In this document: positions 29,367 to 62,508 of the stretch, piece after piece | Position numbering within the stretch: the stretch's first letter is position 1 | Layout of the letters: each line of letters opens with the position of its first letter | From: a virus | Taxonomy: Duplodnaviria > Heunggongvirae > Uroviricota > Caudoviricetes | Strand: one strand, 5' to 3' | IMG/VR virus record: IMGVR_UViG_3300020160_002689 | Coordinates: 20,134-84,133 of that record | DNA length: 64,000 bases | Notes under the pieces: model-generated | Database searches by the model: none | Seen by the model: only the letters and a program-made list of their open reading frames with translations | What the model was told of the DNA's origin: nothing | Made by a program: the position numbers and the translations under genes

Positions 29367-29367
29367 A

Positions 29368-29713: not shown

Positions 29714-29715
29714 AG

Positions 29716-29790: not shown

Positions 29791-29872
29791 ATTTTTTAGT
29801 TGTCCCAGATATGGTCAAGAGGTTAACATTGACCATTTCCTTAACTGTATTCCGACAGATGAACTATTTTTG

Positions 29873-29943
29873 CACGCCACACAGGGTTCGAACCTGTAAC
29901 ATTGGTTTTGGAGACCAAGATGATACCATTTCACCAGTGACGT
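29873..29943 (-). tRNA. tRNA-Trp(CCA)
   Basis: Acceptor ACGTCAC/GTGGCGT, D-stem GTGA/TCAT, stem TTGGT/ACCAA with loop CUCCAAA, T-arm ACAGG-TTCGAAC-CCTGT. Confidence 0.7.
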
Positions 29944-29949
29944 ATTTGT

Positions 29950-30050
29950 GGAAATTCCAGTTATCGAAGCTGGGACGCAGAGCTTCTGTGCCCTCGTTCT
30001 AAAGTTTTCTATAATTCCTATTTTAGAAAGTGCTCTGAGCTAAATCTCCA
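29950..30050 (-). tRNA. tRNA-like remnant with a hairpin insertion
   Basis: Acceptor GGAGATT/AATTTCC pairs; 5' TAGCTCAGAGC D-arm remnant; degenerate T-arm CAGC-TTCGATAA-CTGG; internal hairpin TTCTAAA...TTTAGAA. Confidence 0.3.
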
Positions 30051-30054
30051 TTTG

Positions 30055-30126
30055 TGCGGATTATCGGAATCGAACCGATCTCTTAGGGACTTCACGCCTA
30101 CGCTAAACCGTCTCAGCTAAATCCGC
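30055..30126 (-). tRNA. tRNA-Phe(GAA)-like (mismatch in anticodon stem)
   Basis: Acceptor GCGGATT/AATCCGC, D-stem GCTG/TAGC, loop GUGAAGU, T-arm ATCGG-TTCGATT-CCGAT. Confidence 0.5.
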
Positions 30127-30134
30127 AATTTTTG

Positions 30135-30207
30135 GGTGAAAGACGGGGCTCGAACCCGCGACAACTTGAACCACAATCAAGCACTCTACCTCTGAGCTAC
30201 AATCACC
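30135..30207 (-). tRNA. tRNA-His(GUG)-like with genomically encoded G-1
   Basis: 5' G-GTGATTG, D-stem GCTC/GAGT, loop UUGUGGU, discriminator C; two U:U mismatches in the acceptor stem (5-68, 6-67). Confidence 0.5.
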
Positions 30208-30214
30208 ATGTTTG

Positions 30215-30303
30215 GGTGTAAAACGGGATTCGAACCCGCATTAGAGATATGTCTCATTCCAGATCCACAATCTGGTCGGCTGCCTTTACCGGTTACAAAC
30301 ACC
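30215..30303 (-). tRNA. tRNA-His-like (GUG), 88 nt with extra arm
   Basis: Stem CCAGA/TCTGG with loop UUGUGGA; encoded G-1; same ACACCCAAA 3' flank as the other two His-type genes; extra GAGACATATCTC hairpin. Confidence 0.4.
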
Positions 30304-30312
30304 ATATTTGAG

Positions 30313-30385
<73 letters not shown>

Positions 30386-30392
30386 TTTTTTG

Positions 30393-30478
30393 CACAGATT
30401 AAGAGAATCGAACTCTTTACTACCACCCTAAGGTGCCAAGGTTTTGGAGACCTGGTGCATACCATTATGCTAACCCGT
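30393..30478 (-). tRNA. tRNA-like, CCA anticodon with long variable arm (possible pseudo-tRNA or unusual decoder)
   Basis: Acceptor ACGGGTT/AATCTGT, 4-nt D-loop, anticodon stem with a bulge and loop CUCCAAA, variable hairpin CACC-TTAG-GGTG, T-arm AAGAG-TTCGATT-CTCTT. Confidence 0.4.
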
Positions 30479-30893
30479 ATTTTGCTTTAAACCAATTTTG
30501 TGTTTTAGATGTTCTTTTTTTATGACAATTACCACAAACAACCTCACACTTTTCTATTTCTTCAATTATTCTTTTTATTCCATATCTTTTTGATAATGCA
30601 TCTGATATATTAAATTCTTTATCTCTTTGATGGTCAAATTCAAGTACAATTGGATCACTTTCTCCACAATCAGTACAAGAATTATTTTTTAAATAATTTA
30701 ACACATATTCTTTACTTCTAATAGTACTTTCTTTATTATGATTAAATACACATTCTTTATTTTCAGAATACCATTTTGATTGATATGATTTTCTACATAA
30801 TTTACATATATTACTATATCCGTCTTTTTTAGTTTTATTTTTATGAAATTCTAATAATTCTTTAGATTCCTTACACATAACACAATTTTTCAT
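30465..30893 (-). CDS. HNH endonuclease (zinc-finger HNH)
   Basis: N-terminal CxxC...CxxC; EFDHQRDKEFNIS ... CEVVCGNCHKKRT HNH core. Confidence 0.7.
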   Translation of the reverse strand: MKNCVMCKESKELLEFHKNKTKKDGYSNICKLCRKSYQSKWYSENKECVFNHNKESTIRSKEYVLNYLKNNSCTDCGESDPIVLEFDHQRDKEFNISDALSKRYGIKRIIEEIEKCEVVCGNCHKKRTSKTQNWFKAKYGLA

Positions 30894-31019
30894 ATTGACT
30901 TTTAATTTTTTTATATATTAAAAGTCTTTGTTCCCCCTACCGGTAACGATCCGATTTCCATAGGTTAAAAGCCTATTGCATCACCATTAATGCTTAGAGG
31001 GATTTTAATTTCTTTAAAT

Positions 31020-32937: not shown

Positions 32938-33080
32938 GTTATGTTTTTACAAAGATAGGTTTTATTTTTTAACAAACAAACATTTATCTCTTTGATCCCC
33001 AAAGCATGTAACCAACAAATATTCCTAATAGAAATGCTCCCATTTTATTTTATTTTATTTTATTTTTTTATATATAGATT

Positions 33081-46618: not shown

Positions 46619-46804
46619 TTAAAATTCTTTTTCTATATTTTTACCTCTTTTTTCCATATCTTCTCTAATCAACTTTTCAATATATCTTGATCTCTTGGGT
46701 ATTTCATTTTTATCCAAGTAATCATCCAATTTATCTAATAACTTTTCATTAACAGAAAATGATATTTTTCTTTTCTTTTTATCCTCAGATTTCTTATTTG
46801 CCAT
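46619..46804 (-). CDS. ribbon-helix-helix (CopG/Arc-like) DNA-binding protein
   Basis: KISFSVNEKLLDKLDDYL...SRYIEKLIRED is a typical RHH beta-strand plus two helices. Confidence 0.5.
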   Translation of the reverse strand: MANKKSEDKKKRKISFSVNEKLLDKLDDYLDKNEIPKRSRYIEKLIREDMEKRGKNIEKEF

Positions 46805-46893
46805 TGTATAATTTTTATTTTACAAATATATATATAAAATTTCAATTTATTACAAAAAAAGTATAAAATTATTACTTTTTGAGTTTTTGAAAC

Positions 46894-46919
46894 TTAATAT
46901 ATACTATAACAAAAATAAG
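46894..46919 (+). promoter_or_regulatory. promoter-like motif TTAATATATACTATAACAAAAATAAG in divergent intergenic region
   Basis: Same family as the 16966 and 19908 motifs. Confidence 0.4.
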
Positions 46920-46929
46920 TAATTAAATT

Positions 46930-47097
46930 ATGAAAACAAAGAGTAAAAAGGAAAAAGTGATAGTATCATTATCAATAGACCAAAAATTAGATGATTATAT
47001 GAATGAAATGTTTGAAAATAAGTCTCAATATATTGAGTGGTTGGTAGAACAGGACTTATTAAAAAATGGAGTTAATTTAGAAAAAATAATATTGTAA
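46930..47097 (+). CDS. ribbon-helix-helix protein (55 aa), below the ORF-track cutoff
   Basis: IVSLSIDQKLDDYMNEMFENKSQYIEWLVEQDL is paralogous to the RHH at 46619. It ends 4 nt before the GIY-YIG gene. Confidence 0.4.
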   Translation: MKTKSKKEKVIVSLSIDQKLDDYMNEMFENKSQYIEWLVEQDLLKNGVNLEKIIL

Positions 47098-47101
47098 TAA
47101 T

Positions 47102-47842
47102 ATGGAAAGAAAAGATAATGGATATTGGACTTATGAGAGATGTAGAGAAGAAGCTTTAAAATATATTAGTTCATCTGAATTACAAAGAAAGTGTAGTAGT
47201 GTATATAATAAAATTTATATTAATGGTTGGAATGAACTTACTCAACATTTTATTAAAATTGGGAATAGATATAAAAGATTGGTGTATGTTTATGAATTTA
47301 GTGATAATTTTTTCTATGTAGGTCTTACAGGTAATATCAATAGAAGAATGAAACAACATGTTAATGATATTAATAGTTCTGTGTATAAACATTCAAATTT
47401 AACAAAGTTAAATCCAAATTTATTAATAGTATCAGATTATATTGATGTTGATAATTCAATAGAGTTGGAAAAATTATATTTGGAAAAATATATTAAAGAT
47501 GGATGGAATTCACTTAATAAAGTAAAAACAGGTAATATTGGCTCTTGTAATATAAAATGGAACAAAGAAGAATGTTTTAAAGAGAGTATAAAATATTTAA
47601 CAATAACAGATTATCAGAGGAATTCTAAAAGTTCATATAATACCGCACTTAAAAATGGTTGGATTGATGAAATATGCTCTCATATGAAAAGAAGAAAGTG
47701 TAAAAATGGTGAGTATGATAATAAGAATAAATGTTCTATTGAAGCAAGAAAATACAAAAGTAAGTCAGAGTTTCATAAAAATAATTGGAGTGCTTGGAAT
47801 TACTCAAAAAAGAATGGTTGGTTAGATGAATTTTACAACTAA
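47102..47842 (+). CDS. GIY-YIG nuclease (homing-endonuclease-like, with NGW repeats)
   Basis: VYVYEFSDNFFYVGLTGNINRRMKQH (GIY-YIG core); C-terminal repeated KNGW(I/L)DE modules. Confidence 0.7.
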   Translation: MERKDNGYWTYERCREEALKYISSSELQRKCSSVYNKIYINGWNELTQHFIKIGNRYKRLVYVYEFSDNFFYVGLTGNINRRMKQHVNDINSSVYKHSNLTKLNPNLLIVSDYIDVDNSIELEKLYLEKYIKDGWNSLNKVKTGNIGSCNIKWNKEECFKESIKYLTITDYQRNSKSSYNTALKNGWIDEICSHMKRRKCKNGEYDNKNKCSIEARKYKSKSEFHKNNWSAWNYSKKNGWLDEFYN

Positions 47843-47891
47843 CTTTTACTAAATAATACAATATAAGTATAAATAAAAAAGAAATATAATA

Positions 47892-49058
47892 ATGGATTTT
47901 GTAAATAAATATAGTGATAAAGAAAAGAAAAAAAATGGAGTTTTTTATACTCCAAAAGATATAGCTGAGTTTATGGCTAGTAAAAGTAAATTTGATGATG
48001 GTAAAGGTATATGGTTAGATCCTTGTTGTGGATTAGGTATATTATCAATTATGTTGGCCTCAATTCAAGATGATCCAATTGATTTTATAGAAAATAGATT
48101 GATAATCAATGATATGGATAAATTACAACTGGATATAGCTTTAAATAATTTTAAAGAAAAATTTGGTGTTGTTCCAAAAAGTTTCAATGAAGATTTTTTA
48201 TTATATGATTTTAAATGTGATTATGTTATAATGAATCCACCTTATTTTAGATATAAGGATAATGATATATATGGATACTTCATAGAAAAAGTTTGTAGTA
48301 TATCAAATGGATTTATCAGTATAAATCCAATATCATTTACAAATGGTTCAAAATTTAGAAAAATTAGAAAATCTATCTTAGATTTTAATTCTATTAATTT
48401 ATATCATTTTGATAATATACCAGGGCATATTTTTGATGATGCTGATGTTAGAGTTTCTATTATCATATGTCATAATAAGTCAAATGATAGAAAGACAACC
48501 ACACAAATTAGATGGCAATCAAAAAAGAGAGAAGAAATGATTAAAAACTTAGATAATAATTTAGATGATGCTATTTTTACAGAAGATATTTTCTACAAAA
48601 CATCACCAAATACAACACATTTTATACATGATAACACTTTATTAAATTATGTGGTTAGTAAATCAGATTATCCAATTTATATTACTAGTTTAACAAGATA
48701 TTTTATAACTGGATCAACAAAAAAGTTGGATAGGAATGGACAGATAGAAATTTTTATGAAAGATGAAGATTCATATAATAAGGCTTTAATTATGATAAAT
48801 AGTTCATATCTTTATTGGTGGTGGAGAACATCAGATAGTTCAATGTCTTTGACTAAAAGAACTTTATTATCTCTACCATGGATTGATTTTGTATATGAAA
48901 ATTCTATAATATGTGAAATAGTGAATAGTGAAGTAGTGAATAAGGTCTATAAAATGAATGCTGGAAAATCACAAGAGAATATAAAACATAACAAAGAATT
49001 GGTTAAAAAATTAAATTCTTTATTCATACCAGAGGATTTTATTAAATTACAAGATTAA
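47892..49058 (+). CDS. N6-adenine DNA methyltransferase (gamma class, type II-like)
   Basis: VFYTPKDIAEF (motif X), LDPCCGLG (motif I), MNPPYF (motif IV NPPY). Confidence 0.8.
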   Translation: MDFVNKYSDKEKKKNGVFYTPKDIAEFMASKSKFDDGKGIWLDPCCGLGILSIMLASIQDDPIDFIENRLIINDMDKLQLDIALNNFKEKFGVVPKSFNEDFLLYDFKCDYVIMNPPYFRYKDNDIYGYFIEKVCSISNGFISINPISFTNGSKFRKIRKSILDFNSINLYHFDNIPGHIFDDADVRVSIIICHNKSNDRKTTTQIRWQSKKREEMIKNLDNNLDDAIFTEDIFYKTSPNTTHFIHDNTLLNYVVSKSDYPIYITSLTRYFITGSTKKLDRNGQIEIFMKDEDSYNKALIMINSSYLYWWWRTSDSSMSLTKRTLLSLPWIDFVYENSIICEIVNSEVVNKVYKMNAGKSQENIKHNKELVKKLNSLFIPEDFIKLQD

Positions 49059-49090
49059 ATAAAAAAATCCCTTTAAAGGGATTTTTTTTA
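49059..49090. terminator. bidirectional terminator (perfect palindrome)
   Basis: AAAAAAATCCCTTTAAAGGGATTTTTTTT between convergent genes. Confidence 0.6.
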
Positions 49091-50017
49091 TTATTTTTTA
49101 GTTAAAAAGTGTTGTATAGATACTTCACCAACATGTTGTTTAATTTTACTGAACTCTATATATGTTCCATAACTATCTTCTTTTAAATCACTCTTTTTGA
49201 AAGAGAAAGTTGCATTATTATGTATGTATTTATATCTACTAGAAGTTCTACCACCTCTTTGTGTAATATCTTCAATATCATTCTTATTTACATAATGTTT
49301 ATTATCTATTAAAGATAGTTTATTTTCAGTAAAAACTTTTCTAGTATTTCTACCACAACTTCTAACTTCAATTTTAAAAGAAAAACTCTTTTTATATTCA
49401 TCAATAGTCATTATATTTAAGTTCCCATTATTATCATAACTAATGATATAATCAAATTCATTTGTAATAATATCTTCAATGTTAAATATTTTATTATGAC
49501 CTTGATTTTCTAAGATATTATAATTCTCTAATTCACCACCAATTTCAAATAAAGATTTTACATATTCTTTATATTTCTCACTTTTTGATGTAAAATCAAC
49601 AGGTTTCCCATTATCATTATAAGTAAATCCACAAGATTTACCATAAGCTACAGGTTCTTTTATTTCAAATATCTCAACCTTATTATCAATCTTATGTGTT
49701 ATAATTAAGTCAGGCATTCCAGAACCACCATCTTGTTTAATTGAATATAATTCATTTTCATAAATTCCATTACCAATATAGACACAGCCTAAATGGTTAG
49801 ATATAGCTTGAATTATCATAGTTTCAACTATTCTTCCTGGTTGAAATAAGACACCATTGTTTATTCTATTATTTATATCATTTTTTAGAAATGGTAAATT
49901 TTCCAAAATATAAGATACTTCATCAATTCTCTCAAAATTATCTTTAACTGAATTTTTAACTTTATTCAGTTCTATCAAATTTATTTTTAAATTACCACTT
50001 TTTAGACTATCTATCAT
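49091..50017 (-). CDS. putative PD-(D/E)xK restriction endonuclease (candidate partner of the adjacent methyltransferase)
   Basis: GMPDLIITHKIDNKVEIFEIKEP contains a PD...ExK arrangement; convergent with the N6A methyltransferase. Confidence 0.45.
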   Translation of the reverse strand: MIDSLKSGNLKINLIELNKVKNSVKDNFERIDEVSYILENLPFLKNDINNRINNGVLFQPGRIVETMIIQAISNHLGCVYIGNGIYENELYSIKQDGGSGMPDLIITHKIDNKVEIFEIKEPVAYGKSCGFTYNDNGKPVDFTSKSEKYKEYVKSLFEIGGELENYNILENQGHNKIFNIEDIITNEFDYIISYDNNGNLNIMTIDEYKKSFSFKIEVRSCGRNTRKVFTENKLSLIDNKHYVNKNDIEDITQRGGRTSSRYKYIHNNATFSFKKSDLKEDSYGTYIEFSKIKQHVGEVSIQHFLTKK

Positions 50018-50357: not shown

Positions 50358-51851
50358 ATGGCAATTCAAAGTTCATTTCCAAAGGTAGCTGATCAAATAA
50401 TATCTTATAATAAAAATATTGTTGAAATACTATCTAAAATTAGTTCATTAACAACAACAACTGAGTCATCAGTAAACCTTCAAATATATGATGCAAATGG
50501 TGTGTTGAGAAATTTCACTATGCCTTCATTCACATCATTGAAAGGTGAGATTGATAGATTAAATAATAATATAAATTCATTGTATGGTATTGATGGTGCT
50601 GGTTCTTTAATACAAACAACAACACAAAACAAATATAAGAAACTTATCACAGTTGATTTGAATAGGGATCCTACTCCAATTAGTAGTATTGGTTTTATAT
50701 CAACCTTTAAATCAAGTCCAAACTGGTTTTTTGATTCATTAATGGATCCAATGATTTCAGTAGAATTGGACTTATCCAACAAAATTGAGGATAATGTAAG
50801 AAAATGTTTAATTAGAAGATACATTGTTGATTTTGAAAAAAATGCAGATGGTTCATTAACTACTAATGGTCAATCAGCATTAAATTCATATAATCAATTA
50901 TTTAGAGGAAATGCAAATATCATAATTTCAGAATTTGAAAATTGGCACAAAACTACTACTGGTGTTCTAAATGCTATTAATCCTAAGTTTGATGAACAGA
51001 TTTTTGATTTAGAACCAAACAACTTATTATATGATGGTCAATTTAGTGTATTGAGAATACAAGAAGATAGACTAAATAAAAAACTTTGGTGTGTATTAGA
51101 TACACTTGAATATTTAGTAGTTGATGCAGGACAAACTAAACAATTGGCTGTTGGAGATGAGTTAATTATAAATACTACTCAATCATCTACTAGATATAAA
51201 ATCATTGAAGTTTCTACTGTTGAGAGTAATCCAAGAGTTAGAGTTGAAAGATTAGAAGGAATTGAACCAATTCCAGTTGGTATTGGAACATTAAAAGTTT
51301 ATTCTGATGTTATCTATACCAAAAAATGTAGAGTGAGTGTTGGTTACAATGAAAGAAATGTTCTTTTCATTAAACCAATTAATACTGATAATCACTTAGT
51401 TGCTAAGAAATGGAGTTTAGGTACTGGTTACTATACAAATGATTTAAGATTAGATTCTACATCTACTGCAAATGGTTTGTCAATGGAACAATTCTATATT
51501 GATTATGTTTATGATTATGGTGTTGTTTTACAAGATTTAGTTGCTAAGAAAACTCCTAATGCATTAGGTGGTACTCCTGTTGCACCAGCTTTGAGTGTTG
51601 ATAACTTTAAAGTTGTTCAAATTAATAAACACCTTACTGATTCACCAGATTCTAATTTAGTTAAACAAAAACATAACTATCAGTTATCTTTAAAATCAGA
51701 GATACAACAAATACAAGAAGCAATTTTATCAAGAAATAAAACTGCTAAATTTACTAAGTATAAGTCAGATTCTGCAAAGAAACAAGCTGATTTAGAGATT
51801 GAAGGATTGGTATCTAAAAAGATAGTAAAAGTAAATTACTTGCATCAGTAA
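50358..51851 (+). CDS. structural protein, frame-0 part of a probably frameshifted gene
   Basis: 497-aa ORF ending ...GLVSKKIVKVNYLHQ*; the -1 frame is open from 51803 onward. Confidence 0.5.
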   Translation: MAIQSSFPKVADQIISYNKNIVEILSKISSLTTTTESSVNLQIYDANGVLRNFTMPSFTSLKGEIDRLNNNINSLYGIDGAGSLIQTTTQNKYKKLITVDLNRDPTPISSIGFISTFKSSPNWFFDSLMDPMISVELDLSNKIEDNVRKCLIRRYIVDFEKNADGSLTTNGQSALNSYNQLFRGNANIIISEFENWHKTTTGVLNAINPKFDEQIFDLEPNNLLYDGQFSVLRIQEDRLNKKLWCVLDTLEYLVVDAGQTKQLAVGDELIINTTQSSTRYKIIEVSTVESNPRVRVERLEGIEPIPVGIGTLKVYSDVIYTKKCRVSVGYNERNVLFIKPINTDNHLVAKKWSLGTGYYTNDLRLDSTSTANGLSMEQFYIDYVYDYGVVLQDLVAKKTPNALGGTPVAPALSVDNFKVVQINKHLTDSPDSNLVKQKHNYQLSLKSEIQQIQEAILSRNKTAKFTKYKSDSAKKQADLEIEGLVSKKIVKVNYLHQ

Positions 51852-53557
51852 CTCAAGAGATTATTGACCTTTCAAAAGATCCTAAAACTAAAGTTGATCC
51901 TCAATTTAATGTAAGAGGTTTCTGGAATATTCCAGAAGCGGTCATTACAACTGGAACTAGACCACAAGAAATTGTACAATTTAGGGTTCAGTACAGAAAA
52001 GTAAGTAAAGATGGTAAAGAATCACCAGTTGAAACTTTTTCAATAACAGATTCTCAAAGTAAAGCAGCTTTCTCTAACTGGTCTGAATATAAAACAGATG
52101 CAAGAAAGAGAGTTTACAATAGTACAACTGGTGAGTACACTTGGCAAATTGAAGATGTTACATCAGCAGATACTCCAAATATAAATCAATTTGATTTACC
52201 TATTTTACCAAATGAAAGAATTGAGTTTAGAATTAAATCAATTTCAGAAGTTGGTTGGCCAGAAGCTGCAGTAGAATCAGATTGGTCTGATATATTGACA
52301 GTAGACTTCCCAGATGACTTAAATACAGTTCTTAATGAGAATGACTTTATACTAAGAGAAGCTACTAAGGAAGACTTAAAAACAAGTATGAATGCAGAAT
52401 TATCTGCTAAAGGTTTAGATGAACACTTATCAGATACAGTAACAATTAATAATGTTACTTATCATCATGAAGCTAAGAAAGTTCTTTCTGGTTTTCAAGA
52501 TGAAAATGGTGTTTCATTAGATTTATATACTTATATTCAAAAGTTAACAGATAGAATTACTGCATTAGAAGAAAAAATCAAGAGAGCTAAAGGTGAACTT
52601 GAAATTATTATTCTTAGAAATAACCAAGAGTTTGTTGTATCAAATGGTTCAGAGACAACATTCAATGTTGAGTGTGAAGATTATTTAGATTCATATACTG
52701 CAACAGGTGCACCTACTGGTAGAGTTTATCAAAATAATATTTATATAATTAAAGACTTTATTGTTAAATTTAGAAATAAAGCAACTGAATCAGTATTAGG
52801 TTTATTATCAAATAGAAATTATATTGATGGTACAGGAAATGTTTATAATTCAACAGCACCACAAACTTTCTGGGTAAATAATCAAGATGAATTAAAAACA
52901 GTTGATGTAAGTGGTCAAACAAGAACACAACTTGATAATCAATTTATTTGGATGGTTAACTATGATTCTATTACACAAACAACAGTTTCTAAATTATCTG
53001 AAAATATTGGTAATGCATTTAATGTAGATAATTCAAACTCAGTAACTAATGTACTTTCATCAAATGAGTATAATATAGGTTACAATGAGTCATCAATACT
53101 GGCATTTATTGGTAATAATAAATCATTATTGGATCCAACAAAGTGGAATGATACTACGGTATCAGTTGCATCAACAACTAAATTCTTGACTACAATTCAT
53201 CCAGTTATTAAAGACCTTGAAAGTATTCAAGAAGTAAATAGTGATAAGATTCATACAGTTGCTGCAGGTGATAAAAATTCTATAATAGTTCCATTGAATA
53301 TTTATTTCAAGATGAACTCATTAGATAGTAGTCAAAATGGATTAAACTATCAGTATATTGATTTGAATAATTCAACTCAGACAGTTAAACATGTTAAAAA
53401 ATTAAAGTTTTTTGTAGAGAATGAATCTGAAAATAGACCATTCACCTTTACTCTTAAATTTAATTTAAACAGAAATAAAGTTGCAGTTAGAAAATTCAAT
53501 AATATAGGTGGTGGACCTGCATACATTGATGATTATTCAACAACAAGTAAAAAATAA
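51803..53557 (+). CDS. structural protein, -1-frame continuation (no ATG; the ORF-track entry starts at a TTG at 52295)
   Basis: The -1 frame is open with coding-like sequence (QEIIDLSKDPKTKVDPQFNVRGFWNIPEAV...) for 164 codons upstream of the listed start, and it contains no Met. Confidence 0.45.
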
Positions 53558-53566
53558 TAAGTCATA

Positions 53567-56500
53567 TTGAAATCATTTGCCATATTAAGAACCAATGTTG
53601 GTTTAACAACTAATATAAAAATAATGATTGATACTAACTATAAACTAAGTTTAGATAGTATTGAATCAAATATGAATTTGTCCTTTGATAAATTCAAAAA
53701 GGTCTCATTTAATAAGAGTAATTATTATGATGAGTTAATACCTTATTTTTATAAAGATTTACCAGCAGAGACTGCATATAGTATAAAATATGAGAATGAT
53801 GCAGAAACAATGTCAAATGATTTTGCTTATCAATATGATGAACTATATAATTATGGTGCAAGAAATATAGTTGATAATAAGAATTATTCAGAAGAGTATG
53901 AATACTTTGCACCTCTTTATATTACTAAAACTGGTCTTCCTAAAAAATTTATTGTATTTAGAGTAGATGGTCCAGGTATTGGAACACTAACAACTGCAAA
54001 TTTTAGAACAGATATAATTAATAAATTAAAAACAGTTAAACTATTTGATTTAACTAAAGAAAGTCTATTTGGAGAATGGTTATATACAAACTTTGTTGAT
54101 AACAAATATTTTCCTGACGCTCCATTAGAAATAGATTTTAGAAATCTTGAGTTTTGTAGATGGAATGGTATTGATTATCAAAATGGTGGTTATACTTCTA
54201 AATCATTATTTATTGATGATATTTTAGATGAAGAAAAAGAAATATTTGAACTTGAAAAGTTTGTATTTGATTCTTATAAAAATAATAAAGTTGTTTTTCC
54301 TAACATATTAAATTTATCATTTTTATTTGATGATACACCTTCTACATCAGAACAAAAAAGAAGATGGTCTATAAATAGATACTATGGATTCTACTTAGAT
54401 GATTTAGAGTTAGTAACAACAATGTCATCTTATATTCCAGTTCCTTTAAAAAGTGATATTGTTGTTCTATCAGGTGATGATAGAAATATACTATCATCAC
54501 CAAGTGGTTATCCATTTGAAGAAGTTTGGACTGATAAAAAACCTTTTTATGTAGAGTATAAAGGTAAATATTATAAAGTAGAACAATATACTGAAACTAT
54601 TACAAATCAATTAATTAAAGTTAAAAACACTAAAGGTAATACATCAGAAGATAGAATGCAAAGAGACTTAGGATTTAGTTCATCTAAAAAACAAGCATCT
54701 GCTGTTAAAATAGTCAATACTAAAGATTTAACTACTAATACAAAATCTGCAGTTGAAAATTATGGTGAAGTAATTGTAACTAAGTATAGAATAATATCTG
54801 ATTTAGATTTTGGAGGAATGACTTATTCTGACTTTAATCAAAACTTTGGTGAGATTAAAGATAATGTATTGAAAGACTTGAGTAATAAGTCAATTACTAT
54901 TGATAATTTTGAATCTGCTGATATTTGGTTAATTAACATTGATGGTATTTATCATAATTTAATTAGTAGTGGTACTAATTCAATTAGTGTTAATAGTGAT
55001 TATTCATTTCAATTTAATGAGAATAGTTATACTTATAAGGTAAATGGTGTTGAGAAAACTGTTAATACAATAGTTGATTTTAATAACCCACCTACAATAT
55101 TTAATATTTATAAGGCAAAGTTAACAGACATTAAAGACTTTGATGATAGATTAGTTGATACTGAATATTCTAAATATGAATATGAAAAACTAACAGACCT
55201 TACAAATACAGATGAAACTAAAATGTATTTTGAAGATTTGACAAGTAAAACTGATCCAAGAGATTTAGATGACTTTGTTTATAAGAATGAAGTGGTTAAA
55301 ATTCCAGTATCATCTGAGTACACTGCAAATTATGAAACTTTTAAAGTTGATGATACAACCGGTAACTTATCAGAAATATGGAGAAAGAATCCAGTTTATT
55401 GTAGATTTGGCTTTCAAAACTCAATATCAGGAAATGATGTTCCTTACTTATTAAATAACTCTTTGATATTTGAAGATTATAATAGAACTGTAAATGTTTC
55501 TGATATACATCCTAAAAGAATTGAAAGAAATTTAGATTATTTTTATACTATAAATTCTGCAACATCATCATATTTACATCATAGCTTACATATTGAAGGA
55601 TTTACTTATAGTGGTATTGATAACACATTTAAGTTTGAGTTAGATAAGTACTTAAATCAAGGAACTTACTCTTATGATTATTTTAGTTACTTCTTTAGTA
55701 AACAAACACAATTTTTAAATGGTGATATTAAAAAGAATACTAAAAAATATTCTTATTTTAATGTTGGTGATGACTCTGTTCCTAATCATAGTTTATTTAG
55801 AGGAATTAGATTTGATATTTATAAAGTAGATGGGGTTAACTTAAACTCTAATAATCAAATTGATAAAATTAACATATCAACAAATAATGAATTTGTAGAT
55901 TATAAAATGTCTGTTTTATTATCTGATAATGATTGGTCAATTACTAATACTATACCTGCATCATTAACACAATCTGTAAGTACTTTAGAATGGACTATAA
56001 TTGATGAGTGGAAAATGGATAAAATATATGCATCAGGTTCTGTTGTAATATTTGATGATATTTTATTTAAGAATACTAATGGAACTAAAGATCCTTGTGG
56101 TCCTACAACTAAAATTACCATAAATCAACAGGAATACCATGTTTTATCAAATCCTGCTAACCAAGGTTGGTCTATTTATAGTGATGTTCCTACTAATAGA
56201 GAGATATTTTGGTCACCTGGAAATTCAAATACAAATGGAAGTTTTGTGTATAATTCAGGTGAATATTATGTAGAAAATACTATACCTACCCAAACAAGTT
56301 CACAATATTATAGTTCACCTGCAATTGGTATAAGTAACTTGATACCTTATACTATAGATTTTTGGAAACCTTCTAATCAATATGCAACTGGAAGTATTGT
56401 AATGTATAATAATAAAGTTTTTATATCCAATACAAATAATAATATTTTTCATCCTAATCAAAGTCAATGGGTTGATATATCCACTATTAATAATTTCAAT

Positions 56501-57844
56501 TCAACTGTAACATATTCTAAATCTGATATTGTTAAAAGTAATAATTATTACTATATATCATTAACAAGTAGTAATGTTAATACTTTAAACCCACCTGCAT
56601 GGGAAATTTCATCAAGAGTTCCTTTATCAAGTTTTTTTAAATGGAAATTAGTTGAAATTTGGAATCCTAATAAATCATATATTACAGGATCTTATGTTGT
56701 TCATAATGAAATATTATATAATAATTCATTTACAATATTACCAGGTTTAGAACCAGGTATTTACAATGGTTGGGAAAGAAGATATAGTTTAATACCAGAT
56801 ACAGATTTTAAATATAATATAAACTATACAGAAGATAATACAAATGGAAATCCAATTATTTTACTAAATGATAAGTATTATTTATCAACTAATAAATCAA
56901 TAGAATCAACACTTGATAATGGTATTATAATCTATATCAATAAAAAGTGGAAAAACATATTAGTTAATATAAATATATCAGATAATACATATACTAATGT
57001 TTCATCTACTAATAGAGATGATCTTTATAATGAATTGTATAAAAAATTAACTGCCACTAATTTTATGGCAGCAATAAATGATATAACTAATAAGTATGGA
57101 TTTACTGATTATGTATCTTATGTAGTTATTGATGAAGATAATACAATTAATAAATATAGTTATACTAATAACATTGTTAATCTACCTTATATAATTAAGT
57201 GTGAAGGACCTGATAGTTTAGATGTTAAAATACAATCTTTATTAAAGAGACCTATTTTCTTACCCAATCCATTGAATCCAATTAAAAAGTTGGAAAGTGG
57301 AAAAATATTAAATATTGACCAGTTAAATTTTTATAATGGTAATCCAGTTGGTGTTAATATAATTGAGAATCAATTTGCACCTAAGGTCACTGAAAACTAT
57401 CATGGTTCAAAAAATATTTTAAAAGATACTATTTATAGATTTAGTGGTTATTATATGCCATTATTTTATGATATAGAATTATTTAAAAGAGATTATGAGT
57501 ATAAACAAACTGGTAATTATTTATTTGATACTACACTAACAAACTTTGGTATTATAAAAGAAAGAAAAGTTCGAAAAATAAATAGAAAAGGAAGTATTTT
57601 AAAATTAAAAGATAATCCAGATGAGAAATCAATTTATCCAATGTTAGATGAATTTGGTTATTCTATTTATGACTTTTTTATTTTCTCATCAACTTGGGAT
57701 TTAAAGTATTATTTAGAAACATCTACACTAACTAAAGCAAATAAAGACTATTTAGAGAAATATACAATAGATGAAAATATTGTAAATAACAATAATATAG
57801 TAATACCTATTACAATACCAACAAATATTGGACCATCAAATTAA
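53567..57844 (+). CDS. very large structural protein (baseplate/tail-fibre class)
   Basis: 1425 aa, N/T/S/Y-rich; follows the structural genes. Confidence 0.6.
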   Translation: MKSFAILRTNVGLTTNIKIMIDTNYKLSLDSIESNMNLSFDKFKKVSFNKSNYYDELIPYFYKDLPAETAYSIKYENDAETMSNDFAYQYDELYNYGARNIVDNKNYSEEYEYFAPLYITKTGLPKKFIVFRVDGPGIGTLTTANFRTDIINKLKTVKLFDLTKESLFGEWLYTNFVDNKYFPDAPLEIDFRNLEFCRWNGIDYQNGGYTSKSLFIDDILDEEKEIFELEKFVFDSYKNNKVVFPNILNLSFLFDDTPSTSEQKRRWSINRYYGFYLDDLELVTTMSSYIPVPLKSDIVVLSGDDRNILSSPSGYPFEEVWTDKKPFYVEYKGKYYKVEQYTETITNQLIKVKNTKGNTSEDRMQRDLGFSSSKKQASAVKIVNTKDLTTNTKSAVENYGEVIVTKYRIISDLDFGGMTYSDFNQNFGEIKDNVLKDLSNKSITIDNFESADIWLINIDGIYHNLISSGTNSISVNSDYSFQFNENSYTYKVNGVEKTVNTIVDFNNPPTIFNIYKAKLTDIKDFDDRLVDTEYSKYEYEKLTDLTNTDETKMYFEDLTSKTDPRDLDDFVYKNEVVKIPVSSEYTANYETFKVDDTTGNLSEIWRKNPVYCRFGFQNSISGNDVPYLLNNSLIFEDYNRTVNVSDIHPKRIERNLDYFYTINSATSSYLHHSLHIEGFTYSGIDNTFKFELDKYLNQGTYSYDYFSYFFSKQTQFLNGDIKKNTKKYSYFNVGDDSVPNHSLFRGIRFDIYKVDGVNLNSNNQIDKINISTNNEFVDYKMSVLLSDNDWSITNTIPASLTQSVSTLEWTIIDEWKMDKIYASGSVVIFDDILFKNTNGTKDPCGPTTKITINQQEYHVLSNPANQGWSIYSDVPTNREIFWSPGNSNTNGSFVYNSGEYYVENTIPTQTSSQYYSSPAIGISNLIPYTIDFWKPSNQYATGSIVMYNNKVFISNTNNNIFHPNQSQWVDISTINNFNSTVTYSKSDIVKSNNYYYISLTSSNVNTLNPPAWEISSRVPLSSFFKWKLVEIWNPNKSYITGSYVVHNEILYNNSFTILPGLEPGIYNGWERRYSLIPDTDFKYNINYTEDNTNGNPIILLNDKYYLSTNKSIESTLDNGIIIYINKKWKNILVNINISDNTYTNVSSTNRDDLYNELYKKLTATNFMAAINDITNKYGFTDYVSYVVIDEDNTINKYSYTNNIVNLPYIIKCEGPDSLDVKIQSLLKRPIFLPNPLNPIKKLESGKILNIDQLNFYNGNPVGVNIIENQFAPKVTENYHGSKNILKDTIYRFSGYYMPLFYDIELFKRDYEYKQTGNYLFDTTLTNFGIIKERKVRKINRKGSILKLKDNPDEKSIYPMLDEFGYSIYDFFIFSSTWDLKYYLETSTLTKANKDYLEKYTIDENIVNNNNIVIPITIPTNIGPSN

Positions 57845-58572: not shown

Positions 58573-58920
58573 ATGAATGAAGAGTTTCAAAACAATCTTG
58601 TAAATTTTCTAAAACTATTTAAAAATAGACCTTATCATCTTGCTAAGTATCTAATAGATAACTCTGCATTAACAAAAGATTTTTATAATAAAATATCTAA
58701 ATCAGATAAATTAGAAAACAATAAGTATTTCACAGATATAACAGAAATGAATGAATTTTATAATTCAATTTTGGATATAAAGAAGTCTAAAAAGTCTGTA
58801 GAAGAGATTACTAAAGAAGCTAATATTAAAATGGATCAGCTTATTAAGAATGAAAATTTTGAAGAAGCTGCAAAACTTAGAGATTATATGACAAAAAATA
58901 AAATAAAAAGATTGAGATAA
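58573..58920 (+). CDS. hypothetical protein with UVR motif
   Basis: FEEAAKLRDYM matches the UvrB/C (UVR) motif. Confidence 0.4.
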   Translation: MNEEFQNNLVNFLKLFKNRPYHLAKYLIDNSALTKDFYNKISKSDKLENNKYFTDITEMNEFYNSILDIKKSKKSVEEITKEANIKMDQLIKNENFEEAAKLRDYMTKNKIKRLR

Positions 58921-58972
58921 CTAAACTTTTTGAATTTTACTAATAAAACTTAAACACTTAAATTAAATAAAT

Positions 58973-60064
58973 ATGACACAAAATGAAATTTTAAACCCAG
59001 AATTAGGTAACCCAGACTTTGACCTTTTATATGCAGAAGATACATATAAAAAAGGACAAAAGTTACAAGATAAATACCTTGATTCACTTTATGACTCTAT
59101 TCAAATAGAGACCCCTTCTGCTGGTTCAGTAGTAAGATCTACTTATTTGGGTATGATGTCCAATCAATATGTGTTCAGTGTTGTTGGTTACAAAGATGAT
59201 GTTCGTATTGAGAACAAACCAGGTGAAGCAAAATATCTTAACTCCATTGAAGTTGGAGAACAAGTTGATTTGTTAATCACTGAGGTAGTACAAAGTACTT
59301 ACTTCATCAAAGGAAGTATTGCTTCTTTATATGAATCTAGAGCTCATGAAAATATGAAGTCTTTAGAGGAAGGAGAATCAGTAACTGCTTATATTAGAGC
59401 ATTAAACCCTGCAGGTTATGATGTAGAGTTGACAAATGGAGGAGTTACTCTTCCTGCATTTATGCCTAATACCTTAGCAGGTATCAACAAACTTTATGAC
59501 CCAAGTTCTATTATTGGAGATACATTCCAAGTAATGGTTGAGTCATTCTCTGAACACGAAGGAACTTACATAGTAAGTCGTAGAAAGTATCTACAAAGCT
59601 TGATTCCTGATGAAATCAGTAATCTTGAGTTTAATACTCTATATTCAGGTAGAGTTACTGGTACTACACCATTTGGTATCTTTGTTGAGTTTAATGAATG
59701 TCTAACAGGTATGATCCACAAAGCTAATGTAACAGAAGAGTGGCAAAACAGAATTTCTGAAATCAAACCGGGACAACAAATTGAATTCTATATCAAAGAA
59801 ATCATTAAAGATAAAATTATACTTACTCAAGTTTTGAGAGAAACTTTGTGGGATAATATCAAAAATGGTCAATTGATTGAAGGTAGAGTAAAAGATGTTA
59901 AACAATTTGGTACTTTAGTTATCTTAGATGATGAAACAGTTGGATTAATCCACACATCAGAAATGGAGAAACTTGGTAAGAGATTCACATCTGGACAAGA
60001 TATTAGAGTGAAAGTTTTGAGTGTTGACCGCTCATCAAGAAAAATCTTTCTTACTCTTGGATAA
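58973..60064 (+). CDS. S1-domain protein (ribosomal protein S1-like, multiple S1 repeats)
   Basis: Repeated S1 cores (GRVTGTTPFGIFVEF...GMIHKANV; GQLIEGRVKDVKQFGTLVILDDETVGLIHTSEM; GEQVDLLITEVVQST). Confidence 0.65.
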   Translation: MTQNEILNPELGNPDFDLLYAEDTYKKGQKLQDKYLDSLYDSIQIETPSAGSVVRSTYLGMMSNQYVFSVVGYKDDVRIENKPGEAKYLNSIEVGEQVDLLITEVVQSTYFIKGSIASLYESRAHENMKSLEEGESVTAYIRALNPAGYDVELTNGGVTLPAFMPNTLAGINKLYDPSSIIGDTFQVMVESFSEHEGTYIVSRRKYLQSLIPDEISNLEFNTLYSGRVTGTTPFGIFVEFNECLTGMIHKANVTEEWQNRISEIKPGQQIEFYIKEIIKDKIILTQVLRETLWDNIKNGQLIEGRVKDVKQFGTLVILDDETVGLIHTSEMEKLGKRFTSGQDIRVKVLSVDRSSRKIFLTLG

Positions 60065-60606: not shown

Positions 60607-62508
60607 TTACTTTTTACCTTTTTTGTCAGTAGTTTCTTCAACTGCTGGAATGTCAATAACATTACTATTATTTGCAGGTTTCATACCTTTACCCATCATT
60701 TCCATGATTTGCATCCCAAGTAATCCATCTAATGAACCATTACCACCTTGTCCACCACCATTGATTAATAAGTCAGGCATAATTTTCACTTTACCTTTAC
60801 CAATCTCTTCTGTTACTTTGAATGTAGTAAAGTTATCTTTACCCATTGCATTAACTGCTAATTCATATGCCTTAGCAGTTGAAGTACCTACTGCCAAGAT
60901 AGCATTTGCATCAGCTTCTCCAAGAAGAGTTTTCTTAGTAGCTTCAGCTTCAGCATTTAATTTAGTTGCCTCAGCATTAGCTTCAGCTGCAATTTTTACT
61001 GAGCTTGCAGCACCAGTTGCTTTTTTAACTTCTGCATCTGCAATTTTTTCAGAAATCTCAACACCTTGATTTGCTTTTACAACTTCACTTTGCATATCTG
61101 CAATTGCAGTCTCTTTTTCAAGAGTTTGTCTTTGGATTTGAGCCATTTTTTGTGTCTCATAAGTTGTTTTTTGTTCTTCTGCAATTTTACGATCAGTTAA
61201 TGTTTTCATCAATGATTCTGGTGGTGTAATATCACCAATTAATGTATCAACTGCATGAACATTGTACTCTTCAAGTACAGATGAAATAGCTTGTTTAGCA
61301 GCATCTTGTCTTGATTGACGAGTAGATAAGAATGCAATAACATCTGAATTTTGTGCAGAGTTACGGAAGTAGTTACCAATTGTTGGCTCTAATACTTGAG
61401 ATACAAGTGCTTGTGTAGAACCAAAACGTGCAATTACTTTTGGAGCTTCTGCCATAGGAATATGAATAATTTGAGATACATCTAAGTTAAATGGGAAACC
61501 ATCTTTAGAACGTACAGTAATTGTACTCAATCCTTTATCTAAATTATGAGATTCAGTTCTTGCATTTGCCCAGTTAAGTACAAGGTTAGTTGTAGGTACA
61601 ATCTCAATTGTATTAGTATATACATTAATTGCATATTTACCAGGTCCTAATGGTTCGGCCCAAACACCTTTTTGTCCTTTAGATACTAAGTTACCATGTT
61701 TAAATCCAGCACCAGTTACATCAACACCATCTGCACCAACATAAGAAATAACAACACCACAATGACCAATTGGAATTTCTGTCATTTGTACTTCTTCAAC
61801 TTGAACAGCCCAAGGATTAAGGTTGTAAGATCCTGCTTGAATAACTTGAGTTTGTAAACCTCTGTTACCACCACTTGATAAGAATGTATCAAAATCTTGA
61901 AAGTTATTATGTCCTTCCACTTTATCACCAGCAATTTGGTCTTTACTAAGTGGCTCACCATCTAATGTAGTAACAATACCCACCATATTCTCTTGTACAC
62001 TTACTTGTTTTGTAGTTGATATTTCAAATAAGAATGTATTGATTTTATAACTACCATTTGTAATATAAGCTGCTTGACGGCCTTTCTGACCACCATTTTT
62101 AATAAATGCTTCTGCATCTTGATAATCTTCACACTCAACTCTACGACCTAAGATACGTCCTGTTTGTGGAACTTTACCATCTTTAGCTGAAATCAAACCA
62201 ATGTGTCCTTCTGGAATAACTATAAATCCTTGCATATCAACAGAGTATTGCCAAGGCCACATCCACCAGTGTAAACCGGTCTCTAACATTTTTGCTTGTA
62301 AACCTGCTTCTCCATTTACTGCAATAATTCTATCACCACTTAATTCTTTGTTTGCACCAAAAAGAACAAACTTTTTTGTTACTAGACCAACTTTGTTCTC
62401 AGGAACAATAACCAATCCGAAAAATACTCTTAGTATAAATTTATACAATACTAAAGAGAACACAAGGGCAATAGCCCACCAATAATTAGCTAAAAAGTCT
62501 AATACCAT
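60607..62508 (-). CDS. SPFH/Band-7 flotillin-like membrane protein
   Basis: N-terminal transmembrane helix, PHB/SPFH core, long Ala/Glu/Lys heptad coiled-coil (AEAEATKK repeats) and a Gly-rich C-terminus; 633 aa. Confidence 0.7.
   Translation of the reverse strand: MVLDFLANYWWAIALVFSLVLYKFILRVFFGLVIVPENKVGLVTKKFVLFGANKELSGDRIIAVNGEAGLQAKMLETGLHWWMWPWQYSVDMQGFIVIPEGHIGLISAKDGKVPQTGRILGRRVECEDYQDAEAFIKNGGQKGRQAAYITNGSYKINTFLFEISTTKQVSVQENMVGIVTTLDGEPLSKDQIAGDKVEGHNNFQDFDTFLSSGGNRGLQTQVIQAGSYNLNPWAVQVEEVQMTEIPIGHCGVVISYVGADGVDVTGAGFKHGNLVSKGQKGVWAEPLGPGKYAINVYTNTIEIVPTTNLVLNWANARTESHNLDKGLSTITVRSKDGFPFNLDVSQIIHIPMAEAPKVIARFGSTQALVSQVLEPTIGNYFRNSAQNSDVIAFLSTRQSRQDAAKQAISSVLEEYNVHAVDTLIGDITPPESLMKTLTDRKIAEEQKTTYETQKMAQIQRQTLEKETAIADMQSEVVKANQGVEISEKIADAEVKKATGAASSVKIAAEANAEATKLNAEAEATKKTLLGEADANAILAVGTSTAKAYELAVNAMGKDNFTTFKVTEEIGKGKVKIMPDLLINGGGQGGNGSLDGLLGMQIMEMMGKGMKPANNSNVIDIPAVEETTDKKGKK

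What the first reader, a model, noticed from the sequence alone, without database searches (positions are those of the whole stretch)
50358..53557. Apparent -1 frameshift joining two structural ORFs at an A5 run
ORF 50358..51851 ends ...VSKKIVKVNYLHQ*. The downstream ORF (ORF-track start 52295, a TTG) is open in the -1 frame for 164 further codons back to 51803. That stretch has good coding character and contains no Met. The frames overlap at TCTAAAAAGATAG (51814..51826). So either a programmed -1 ribosomal or transcriptional slip at A5G produces a fusion protein of about 1060 aa, or there is a homopolymer sequencing error, or it is a recent pseudogenisation.
Basis: seen in the sequence. Interest (0 to 1): 0.5.

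Follow-up and report, generated by a model that had tools for sequence, protein, structure and literature searches.

The report
One gene, one missing A
The two "ORFs" are the halves of one conserved 1066-residue megaphage virion-type gene, split because this sequence has five A's where its closest relatives have six; this is an ordinary single-base loss (assembly miscall or very recent mutation), not an evolved programmed frameshift.

Summary
ORF 50358..51851 and the -1 frame open from 51818 to 53557 are the two halves of one protein (PHROG 29329, Sphingomonas phage PAU gp264-like). They join exactly at the A5 run, 51816..51820.

The recoding interpretation fails.
- Three contigs 91-95% identical in DNA carry GTATCTAAAAAAGATAGT (A6) and an uninterrupted 1066-aa ORF. 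The window has GTATCTAAAAAGATAGT (A5).
- All 99 related viral and metagenomic loci, and the megaphages LR745206, LR756502 and LR756501, read through the junction in one frame.
- The two Lys codons vary synonymously (AAAAAA, AAGAAA, AAAAAG, AAGAAG), so no slip site is conserved.
- No downstream RNA structure is predicted (z = -0.07).
- A5 is too short for transcriptional slippage.

The downstream half shows no decay on the window's own branch (30 synonymous against 7 non-synonymous codon changes, no stops). This is the only frame-breaking indel in about 35 kb compared with near-identical contigs.

So one A was lost from an A6 tract, either in the consensus or very recently in the phage. Only reads can decide which. 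If the loss is real, a slip on U_AAA_AAG would restore the exact wild-type protein at a low level.

Side note: the A-rich, Lys-rich central helix region is also broken in other family members.

The parts
50358..53557 (+). One gene for a PAU gp264-like / PHROG 29329 protein. It is 1066 aa once a single A is restored.
   Evidence: Relatives L015-L017 encode a colinear 1066-aa ORF with the same C-terminus.
50358..51851 (+). ORF1 as written in the window: 488 native codons, then 9 out-of-frame codons (IVKVNYLHQ), then TAA.
   Evidence: Homology to relatives stops at K488.
51816..51820 (+). A5 run where one A is missing relative to A6 in the closest relatives. It is the only indel inside this gene.
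   Evidence: L015, L016, L017 and LR756502 have TCTAAAAAAGAT or ACTAAAAAAGAT.
51815..51821 (+). U_AAA_AAG, the only place where a -1 slip could rescue the frame. The A-site tRNA-Lys would move from AAG to AAA. The P-site re-pairing is imperfect (AAA to UAA).
   Evidence: Read directly from the sequence. A_AAG shiftiness is taken from PMC5009743.
51815..51817 (+). TAA stop in the -1 frame, immediately 5' of the junction. It sets the upstream limit of any frame change.
51818..53557 (+). C-terminal 578 codons plus stop, in the -1 frame. There is no ATG, GTG or TTG for the first 159 codons.
   Evidence: 71-97% aa identity to relatives.
51849..51851 (+). TAA stop of ORF1, the downstream limit of the 31-nt overlap zone.
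52295..52297 (+). TTG that the ORF track used as a start. It is an internal Leu codon (..DILTVDF..), not a real start.
   Evidence: Homology continues 159 codons upstream.
51801..51806 (+). GAAGGA, a Shine-Dalgarno-like hexamer 12 nt upstream of the AAG codon. It encodes E-G and is equally present in relatives with intact frames, so it is no evidence of a stimulator.

Best explanation
50358..53557 is a single gene for a conserved protein of about 1066 aa, found in jumbo phages and megaphages. Its predicted layout is an N-terminal beta-rich domain, a long helical hairpin (residues 430-507), an FN3-like beta domain (517-650) and distal domains.

In this sequence one A is missing from an ancestral A6 tract (AAA AAA encoding Lys-Lys, residues 487-488). 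The reading frame therefore drops to -1 in the middle of helix 471-507.

This is a lineage-specific single-base loss, not an evolved recoding signal. It is either a homopolymer-length miscall in the consensus or a very young mutation in the phage. I put about 0.45 on each.

If the loss is real, most ribosomes make a 497-aa truncated product. Full-length protein can arise only when tRNA-Lys slips from AAG to the overlapping AAA in U_AAA_AAG. That slip would restore exactly the wild-type ...VSKKDSKS... sequence. Its efficiency is inferred to be low (per cent level or less) and was not measured.
For: (1) One gene. PHROG 29329 matches ORF1 on profile positions 17-473 and the -1 stretch on 474-784. 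LR745206, LR756502 and LR756501 have single ORFs of 1059, 1058 and 1094 aa.

(2) The exact lesion. IMG/VR contigs L015 (94.9% nt identity) and L016/L017 (91.1%) carry GTATCTAAAAAAGATAGT where the window has GTATCTAAAAAGATAGT. This is the only indel inside the gene. They encode a colinear 1066-aa protein with the same C-terminus.

(3) No conservation of a two-frame layout. 97 of 99 related loci read through the junction in one alignment segment. All 99 show a single frame over the gene. 64 metagenomic proteins span the junction in one frame.

(4) No conserved slip site. The Lys-Lys codons are AAAAAA, AAGAAA, AAAAAG or AAGAAG in different relatives.

(5) No stimulator. Positions 51815..51920 fold no better than shuffles (z = -0.07).

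(6) The lesion is young or unreal. On the window's own branch the C-part has 30 synonymous against 7 non-synonymous codon changes. That matches the intact L015 branch (26:7). dN/dS is 0.06 on both sides of the break.

(7) The assembly is otherwise clean. This is the only frame-breaking indel among about 50 ORFs over window positions 27.4-62.5 kb compared with L114/L117. It is also the only one among about 25 orthologues compared with LR745206.
Against: Nothing contradicts a single-base loss. What stays open is whether the loss is real.

Points leaning towards 'real':
- Tenacibaculum phages PTm1 and PTm5, which are cultured isolates, carry a -1 frame change at the homologous residues 485-488.
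- Other environmental alleles are broken nearby by substitutions or indels.
- Breaks in this region therefore do exist in nature.

Points leaning towards 'miscall':
- The lesion is the textbook homopolymer -1 error.
- There are no secondary changes.

The U_AAA_AAG motif created by the deletion is intrinsically shifty in E. coli. Some rescue by slippage therefore cannot be excluded.
Confidence: 0.9

Rival explanations
1. Programmed -1 ribosomal frameshifting at U_AAA_AAG. It would deliberately make two products: a 497-aa short form and a 1066-aa fusion, as in dnaX or the phage tail-chaperone G/GT genes.
For: A_AAG is the minimal -1 shift motif and AAA_AAG is very shifty in E. coli (PMC5009743). 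The slip product would be the authentic protein sequence. A GAAGGA hexamer lies 12 nt upstream of the AAG codon. The window encodes two tRNA-Lys(UUU) genes and no tRNA-Lys(CUU).
Against: Relatives at 91-95% nt identity have A6 and one ORF. None of 99 related loci has the two-frame layout. The Lys codons are not conserved as a slip site. The heptamer's first base is U, so P-site re-pairing is imperfect. No downstream structure is predicted. GAAGGA is shared with intact relatives because it encodes E-G. The break falls mid-helix, not at a domain boundary.
Confidence: 0.04
2. Transcriptional slippage: RNA polymerase adds an A on the A5 run and restores the frame in a fraction of mRNAs.
For: The frame would be restored by one extra A in the mRNA.
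Against: By my recollection, known productive slippage tracts are about 8-9 or more identical bases, for example the run of A's used in Thermus dnaX. I did not check the length threshold in the text of PMC5009743. Here the run is only 5. The window holds 150 A5 and 199 T5 runs, so slippage at this length would wreck general expression.
Confidence: 0.01
3. Gene fission: the two halves are now separate polypeptides. The C-terminal half would be started independently, by termination-reinitiation or at a non-canonical start such as ATT at 51860/51863.
For: The family tolerates two-gene versions. The LR756501-like clade has 581-aa and 483-aa genes separated by two stops and a new ATG, seen on 18 contigs. 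In PTm5 the annotated start of ORF-004 is a TTG overlapping the ORF-003 stop (TTGGTAA). L122 has TAA followed directly by TTG at residue 484.
Against: In the window the C-part has no ATG, GTG or TTG for 159 codons. The conserved Leu484 TTG (51807..51809) lies in frame 0, not the -1 frame. There are no compensating changes relative to 95%-identical intact relatives.
Confidence: 0.03
4. This reading is a subset of the 'real mutation' branch. The A-rich, Lys-rich central helix would be a recurrent, tolerated break point, acting as a mutational on/off or long/short switch for the distal half of this virion protein.
For: There are independent breaks within or near residues 460-552:
- the window (488);
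- PTm1/PTm5 (485-488);
- L133, an A-run single-base loss near residue 460;
- L122, a TAA at 483;
- L123 and L124, deletions with a frame shift;
- L127, a TGA at 517; L128, a TAA at 545; L125, a TGA at 552.
PTm1 and PTm5 are viable isolates.
Against: Ascertainment is biased. The protein database appears to lack proteins above about 1010 aa, so it is enriched for fragments. I also looked preferentially near the junction. In the unbiased set of 99 loci there are 0 junction breaks and one stop elsewhere, at residue 239. Start positions of 124 C-terminal fragments are spread broadly, with only 3 at residues 484-487. A6 is short for efficient phase variation.
Confidence: 0.1

Closest known systems
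E. coli dnaX programmed -1 frameshift (A_AAA_AAG)
   Same: The same Lys-Lys AAA_AAG core, with tRNA-Lys able to re-pair on the overlapping AAA (PMC5009743).
   Different: dnaX has A at the first position of the heptamer, an upstream Shine-Dalgarno sequence and a downstream hairpin, and it is conserved. Here the first base is U, no structure is predicted, and the motif is absent from 99 relatives. It exists only because one A was lost.
Phage lambda PaPa side-tail-fibre (stf) frameshift. Recalled from memory (Hendrix and Duda 1992); not checked here.
   Same: A single-base deletion splits a long virion-appendage gene into two ORFs in one lineage, while close relatives (Ur-lambda) keep one ORF.
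   Different: In lambda the mutation is confirmed in DNA and the phenotype (no side fibres) is known. Here neither the reality of the deletion nor the protein's role is established.
'Savior' or compensated indels, for example the HSV thymidine kinase G-run
   Same: A homopolymer indel combined with low-level compensatory frameshifting that yields a little authentic product (PMC5009743).
   Different: No selective advantage or measured leakiness is known for the window's allele.
Phage tail assembly chaperone G/GT-type -1 programmed frameshift
   Same: A late-gene, virion-module location with two overlapping frames in a -1 relation.
   Different: G/GT frameshifting is conserved across orthologues and placed at a domain end. 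Here orthologues are single ORFs and the break is mid-helix.
Sphingomonas phage PAU gp264 / PHROG 29329 family (function unknown)
   Same: Full-length homology on both sides of the break. In Tenacibaculum phages PTm1 and pT24 the gene lies just downstream of head-completion and neck genes and is followed by a protein longer than 1000 aa; in PAU the neighbouring genes carry no functional annotation.
   Different: The window's copy is interrupted. Most members are a single ORF of 1058-1094 aa.

Membership tests
Programmed -1 ribosomal frameshift site | Slippery heptamer X_XXY_YYZ in the upstream frame, allowing both tRNAs to re-pair. | tested here: inconclusive
   The heptamer is U_AAA_AAG (51815..51821). 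The A-site move AAG to AAA is perfect. The P-site move AAA to UAA mismatches at the first base. Only the tetranucleotide A_AAG motif is satisfied (PMC5009743).
Programmed -1 ribosomal frameshift site | The two-frame arrangement and slip site are conserved among orthologues. | tested here: not met
   None of 99 related loci is frameshifted. The Lys codons vary synonymously. The closest relatives have A6 and one ORF.
Programmed -1 ribosomal frameshift site | A stimulatory element: a downstream hairpin or pseudoknot, or an upstream Shine-Dalgarno-like sequence. | tested here: not met
   The 106 nt from 51815 fold to -11.9 kcal/mol against a shuffle mean of -11.7 (z = -0.07). The upstream GAAGGA is a coding E-G dipeptide shared with intact relatives.
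Programmed -1 ribosomal frameshift site | Both the short and the fusion product are made. | not testable with these tools
   This needs proteomics or a reporter assay.
Transcriptional slippage site | A long homopolymer tract, roughly 8-9 or more identical bases (threshold from my recollection, not checked in a paper here). | tested here: not met
   The run is A5 (51816..51820).
Homopolymer single-base indel (sequencing miscall or spontaneous mutation) | It differs from the nearest relatives by exactly one base within a mononucleotide run. | tested here: met
   A5 against A6 in L015, L016, L017, L034, L035 and LR756502.
Homopolymer single-base indel (sequencing miscall or spontaneous mutation) | Restoring the base gives a full-length ORF colinear with orthologues, and the downstream frame shows no decay. 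| tested here: met
   The repaired ORF is 1066 aa, with the same length and C-terminus as L015-L017. On the window's branch the C-part has 30 synonymous against 7 non-synonymous changes.
Homopolymer single-base indel (sequencing miscall or spontaneous mutation) | Read-level support to tell a miscall from a mutation. | not testable with these tools
   No reads are available. The window itself was not found in any searchable collection.
Two-gene (fission) version of the family, as in the LR756501-like clade | The downstream half has its own canonical start codon close to the upstream stop. | tested here: not met
   There is no ATG, GTG or TTG in the -1 frame for 159 codons. Compare ATG 18 nt after the stop in L130-L132.
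Stop-codon reassignment (alternative genetic code) | The ORF is interrupted by in-frame stops of one kind at sense positions. | tested here: not met
   The window's break is a frame change, not an in-frame stop. In-frame stops in relatives are of different kinds (TAA, TGA) at different residue types.
PHROG 29329 / PAU gp264-like protein family | A profile match over the family's conserved N-terminal and central regions. | tested here: met
   E = 5e-37 on profile positions 17-473 and E = 2e-47 on 474-784. In the BFVD structure search, the top hit is a protein named Gp264 from an uncultured marine phage (E = 0) and the 1078-aa entry H9NCE1 matches at 3e-62.

The most novel reading that the evidence does not exclude
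The deletion is real, and the Lys-rich central helix of this conserved megaphage virion protein is a recurrent, tolerated break point. It is encoded by A-tracts.

Independent lineages are broken there: this window, the cultured Tenacibaculum phages PTm1/PTm5 at the same residues, and several environmental alleles broken by single-base loss, nonsense codons or deletions. A sister clade has fixed a two-gene version.

Populations might therefore toggle the distal half of the protein on and off. In the window's allele, U_AAA_AAG slippage would give leaky full-length product.
Probability: 0.1. Interest if true: 0.5.

Novelty: already known. Interest (0 to 1): 0.14.

Why it matters
The main value is for annotation. 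The locus should be recorded as one gene, either with a frameshift note or corrected to A6 after a read check. It should not be annotated as two ORFs or as a recoding event.

It also gives a worked example of how to separate programmed frameshifts from homopolymer lesions, using near-identical metagenomic relatives and branch-specific counts of synonymous and non-synonymous changes.

If the deletion proved real and tolerated, it would hint that the distal half of a protein conserved from PAU-like jumbo phages to phages above 600 kb is dispensable or switchable. That would be of moderate interest to phage structural biologists.

Tried and rejected
- **Near-identical assemblies.** Exact-pattern searches with a variable A-run length found nothing in viral contigs or genome contigs. 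An exact-protein look-up of ORF1 also found nothing. The window's own source is not in the collections.
- **Downstream stimulatory RNA.** None is predicted.
- **Odd tRNA with a 2-base anticodon call (11730..11801).** I considered it as a possible doublet-decoding shifter. I dropped the idea: it scores low as a tRNA (33 bits), ARAGORN lists no comparable odd tRNA in the matching cluster of LR745206 (sequences were not aligned), and nothing links it to the site.
- **Second frameshift candidate near 33042.** It is an 8-nt TTTTA-repeat indel in an intergenic region between divergent small ORFs, not a broken gene.
- **Apparent frameshift in relatives L118/L119, in the orthologue of 60607..62508.** The alignment ends at a 2-nt indel, which looks like a mosaic boundary and is not at a homopolymer.
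- **Alternative genetic code.** I considered this after seeing TGA at a conserved Gly position in L125. I rejected it because relatives carry different stop codons at different residue types.
- **Break hot spot at residues 483-488.** The start positions of 124 C-terminal fragments are spread broadly. L134 and L129 are scaffold N-gaps, and L135 is a contig edge. The result is inconclusive.
- **Function from fold.** The AlphaFold2 model (mean pLDDT 71, pTM 0.34) gave only weak matches to phage tail-tip and fibre proteins and to FN3 domains. Pfam gave nothing significant.
- **Original PTm1 paper.** It was not found in the searchable library.
Full report
**The observation**

ORF1 (50358..51851, frame 0) ends ...GLVSKKIVKVNYLHQ*. 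The -1 frame is open from 51818 to 53557. The ORF-track start at 52295 is only the first TTG in that frame. The 159 codons upstream of it contain no ATG, GTG or TTG.

The overlap zone is therefore 51818..51848, and the start-less stretch is 159 codons, not 164. The A run is 51816..51820, followed by G51821. Frame-0 codons are TCT AAA AAG ATA. Joining after AAG gives a 1066-aa protein.

**Both halves are one gene**

PHROG 29329, a profile of 1092 positions with unknown function, matches ORF1 on positions 17-473. It matches the -1 stretch on positions 474-784, so the two matches abut.

A tblastn search places the family in several phage groups:
- freshwater and subsurface megaphages (LR745206, LR756502, LR756504, LR756501/3, LR756500);
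- Lak phages;
- Tenacibaculum phages pT24 and PTm1/PTm5;
- Chryseobacterium phages MA9V-1 and MA9V-2;
- Sphingomonas phage PAU (gp264).

LR745206 and LR756502 belong to the group of megaphages above 630 kb (PMC9723777). LR745206, LR756502 and LR756501 carry single ORFs of 1059, 1058 and 1094 aa. LR756502 reads ACT AAA AAA GAT AGT exactly where the window reads TCT AAA AAG ATA GT.

**The decisive comparison**

IMG/VR contigs L015, L016 and L017 come from three different metagenomes. They are 94.9% (L015) and 91.1% (L016, L017) identical to the window in DNA over about 5-6 kb. All three read GTATCTAAAAAAGATAGT (A6). All three encode an uninterrupted 1066-aa protein with the same C-terminus as the repaired window protein.

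The single-base gap in the A run is the only indel inside this gene. The other indels are intergenic or multiples of three.

A metagenome scan added 80 more loci. Over all 99 loci, 97 read through the junction in one alignment segment. All 99 are single-frame over the part of the gene they hold. Only one in-frame stop occurs, at residue 239 of L072. In addition, 64 metagenomic proteins span the junction in one frame.

The two Lys codons at the junction are AAAAAA, AAGAAA, AAAAAG or AAGAAG in different relatives. No slippery sequence is conserved. The intact single-frame state is therefore ancestral and nearly universal. The window has lost one A.

**Is it an evolved recoding site?**

The features that define programmed -1 frameshifting were tested.
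- **Heptamer.** It is U_AAA_AAG. The A-site AAG to AAA re-pairing is ideal, and A_AAG is the minimal shifty tetranucleotide (PMC5009743). The P-site re-pairing mismatches.
- **Conservation.** It is absent.
- **Downstream structure.** It is no better than shuffles (z = -0.07).
- **Upstream GAAGGA.** It encodes E-G and is present in intact relatives.
- **Transcriptional slippage.** A5 is far below the tract length I recall being needed for it.
- **Position in the protein.** The AlphaFold2 model (mean pLDDT 71) puts residue 488 in the middle of helix 471-507 of a helical hairpin. It is not at a domain boundary, where a deliberately made short form would be expected to end.

I give programmed frameshifting about 0.04.

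**Age and reality of the lesion**

I polarised codon changes using L015 and L016. On the window's own branch the downstream half has 30 synonymous and 7 non-synonymous changes in the repaired frame. The intact L015 branch has 26 and 7. Pairwise dN/dS is about 0.06 on both sides of the break. There is no stop in 578 codons. The downstream half was therefore under purifying selection for essentially the whole branch. The lesion is either very recent or not real.

The assembly is otherwise clean. Against LR745206, only this gene among about 25 orthologues changes frame. Against the near-identical contigs (L114, L117, L116, L119), which cover window positions 27.4-62.5 kb, it is the only frame-breaking indel. 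A second candidate at 33042 turned out to be an intergenic repeat indel.

Reads are needed to tell a miscall from a mutation. The window itself is not in any searchable collection.

**Consequences if the loss is real**

ORF1 would give 488 native residues plus 9 junk residues. The C-part has no usable start codon. The conserved Leu484 TTG (51807..51809) is in frame 0. Full-length protein therefore needs a -1 slip at AAG (51819..51821). That slip would regenerate exactly ...GLVSKKDSKSKLL..., the sequence of L016. Its efficiency is inferred to be low and was not measured. The window encodes two tRNA-Lys(UUU) genes.

**What the protein is**

Pfam gives nothing significant. Fold searches give strong matches only to family members: a protein named Gp264 from an uncultured marine phage, the 1078-aa entry H9NCE1, and the PTm1/PTm5 pieces. 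Matches to lambda and Chi tail-tip proteins, T5-like straight fibre and FN3 domains are weak.

In PTm1 and pT24 the gene follows head-completion and neck genes. It precedes a protein longer than 1000 aa, annotated 'tail collar domain' in pT24. A virion appendage role is plausible but inferred.

**Other broken alleles in the family**

- **PTm1 and PTm5** (cultured isolates with identical DNA at this spot) change to the -1 frame at residues 485-488, at ATA AAA CTA. The annotated start of the downstream ORF is a TTG that overlaps the ORF-003 stop.
- **PTm1** has an extra break near residue 755 that PTm5 lacks.
- **The protein database is biased.** It returned no intact protein of about 1060 aa, although JGI contigs encode them. 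Its longest hit is 1009 aa. It seems to exclude longer proteins and so is enriched for fragments.
- **Broken alleles found in that set:**
  - L122, GAA to TAA at residue 483, followed by TTG;
  - L133, loss of one A from an A-run near residue 460;
  - L123 and L124, deletions with a frame shift;
  - L127, TGA at 517; L128, TAA at 545; L125, TGA at 552.
- **Breaks that are technical:** L129 and L134 are N-gaps, and L135 is a contig edge.
- **The LR756501-like clade** has a fixed two-gene version: 581 aa, two stops, then an ATG and 483 aa, seen on 18 contigs.

These alleles show that disrupted and split versions exist in nature and that the A-rich helix region is fragile. My sampling was biased towards the junction, however. 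The unbiased 99-locus set shows no junction break. Fragment start positions are spread broadly. I keep a 'tolerated, recurrent break point' as the most novel reading that is not excluded, at a probability of about 0.1.

**Verdict**

The programmed or transcriptional slip is not supported. The sequence shows an ordinary single-base loss in an A6 tract of one conserved gene, either a consensus miscall or a very recent mutation in about equal measure. The kind of event is already known, and interest is low.

Noticed in passing
L007 (AP019524, PTm1) 1515..4746; L013 (AP019525, PTm5) 1485..4717: Tenacibaculum phages PTm1 and PTm5 carry a -1 frame change in the orthologous gene at the homologous residues 485-488, at ATA AAA CTA. 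The annotated downstream start is a TTG overlapping the upstream stop (TTGGTAA). PTm1 has a second break near residue 755 that PTm5 lacks.
   Followed up: partly
L130-L132 3001..6216 (for example JGI Ga0334813_000005): In the LR756501-like megaphage clade the orthologue is a fixed two-gene version: 581 aa, TAA, 5 codons, TAA, then ATG and 483 aa. The split lies inside an S/T-rich insert within the FN3-like domain and is seen on 18 contigs. LR756501 itself has one 1094-aa ORF.
   Followed up: partly
L122 5447..5452; L125 about 4154; L127 about 4049; L128 about 4133; L133 about 2430; L072: Environmental alleles of the same gene carry in-frame nonsense codons: TAA at residue 483 followed by TTG, TGA at 517, TAA at 545, TGA at a conserved Gly at 552, and a stop at 239. 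One allele (L133) has lost one A from an A-run near residue 460. They may be real defective or variant alleles.
   Followed up: partly
window 11730..11801 (-) and 11468..11569 (-): ARAGORN calls a tRNA with a 6-nt anticodon loop ('anticodon tt'), which scores only 33 bits in Rfam. Rfam also finds a 102-nt tRNA-like match that ARAGORN does not list, which may contain an intron. Both lie inside a cluster of 11 tRNA genes.
   Followed up: partly
window 10575..13516 and 29281..31002 (-): There are 21 tRNA genes in two clusters, including two tRNA-Lys(UUU), three tRNA-Glu(UUC) and three tRNA-His(GUG). LR745206 has similar clusters but with more Lys tRNAs, including a CUU one.
   Followed up: no
window 53562..53569: The next gene (1425 aa, 53567..57844) starts with TTG. 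The 95%-identical contig L015 has ATG there. A 3-nt insertion (GTCATG to GTCATATTG) changed the start codon.
   Followed up: partly
window 46632..50006: A segment of about 3.4 kb is absent from the 95%-identical contig L015, where the flanks are adjacent. It holds a PHROG 20046 / endonuclease-like ORF, a DNA methyltransferase (47892..49058) and a minus-strand ORF (49091..50017). It looks like a variable island.
   Followed up: no
window 33040..33075: A TTTTA pentanucleotide repeat lies in a divergent intergenic region. It is 8 nt longer than in relatives L114-L116.
   Followed up: partly
window 58573..60064: There is a small protein with a UvrB/UvrC motif (58573..58920) and a 363-aa protein with a C-terminal S1 RNA-binding domain (58973..60064). 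Both lie just downstream of the putative virion genes.
   Followed up: no
protein database: No hit is longer than 1009 aa, although JGI contigs in the DNA collections encode intact 1066-aa orthologues. The protein collection seems to omit proteins above about 1000 aa, which enriches hits for fragments and broken alleles.
   Followed up: partly
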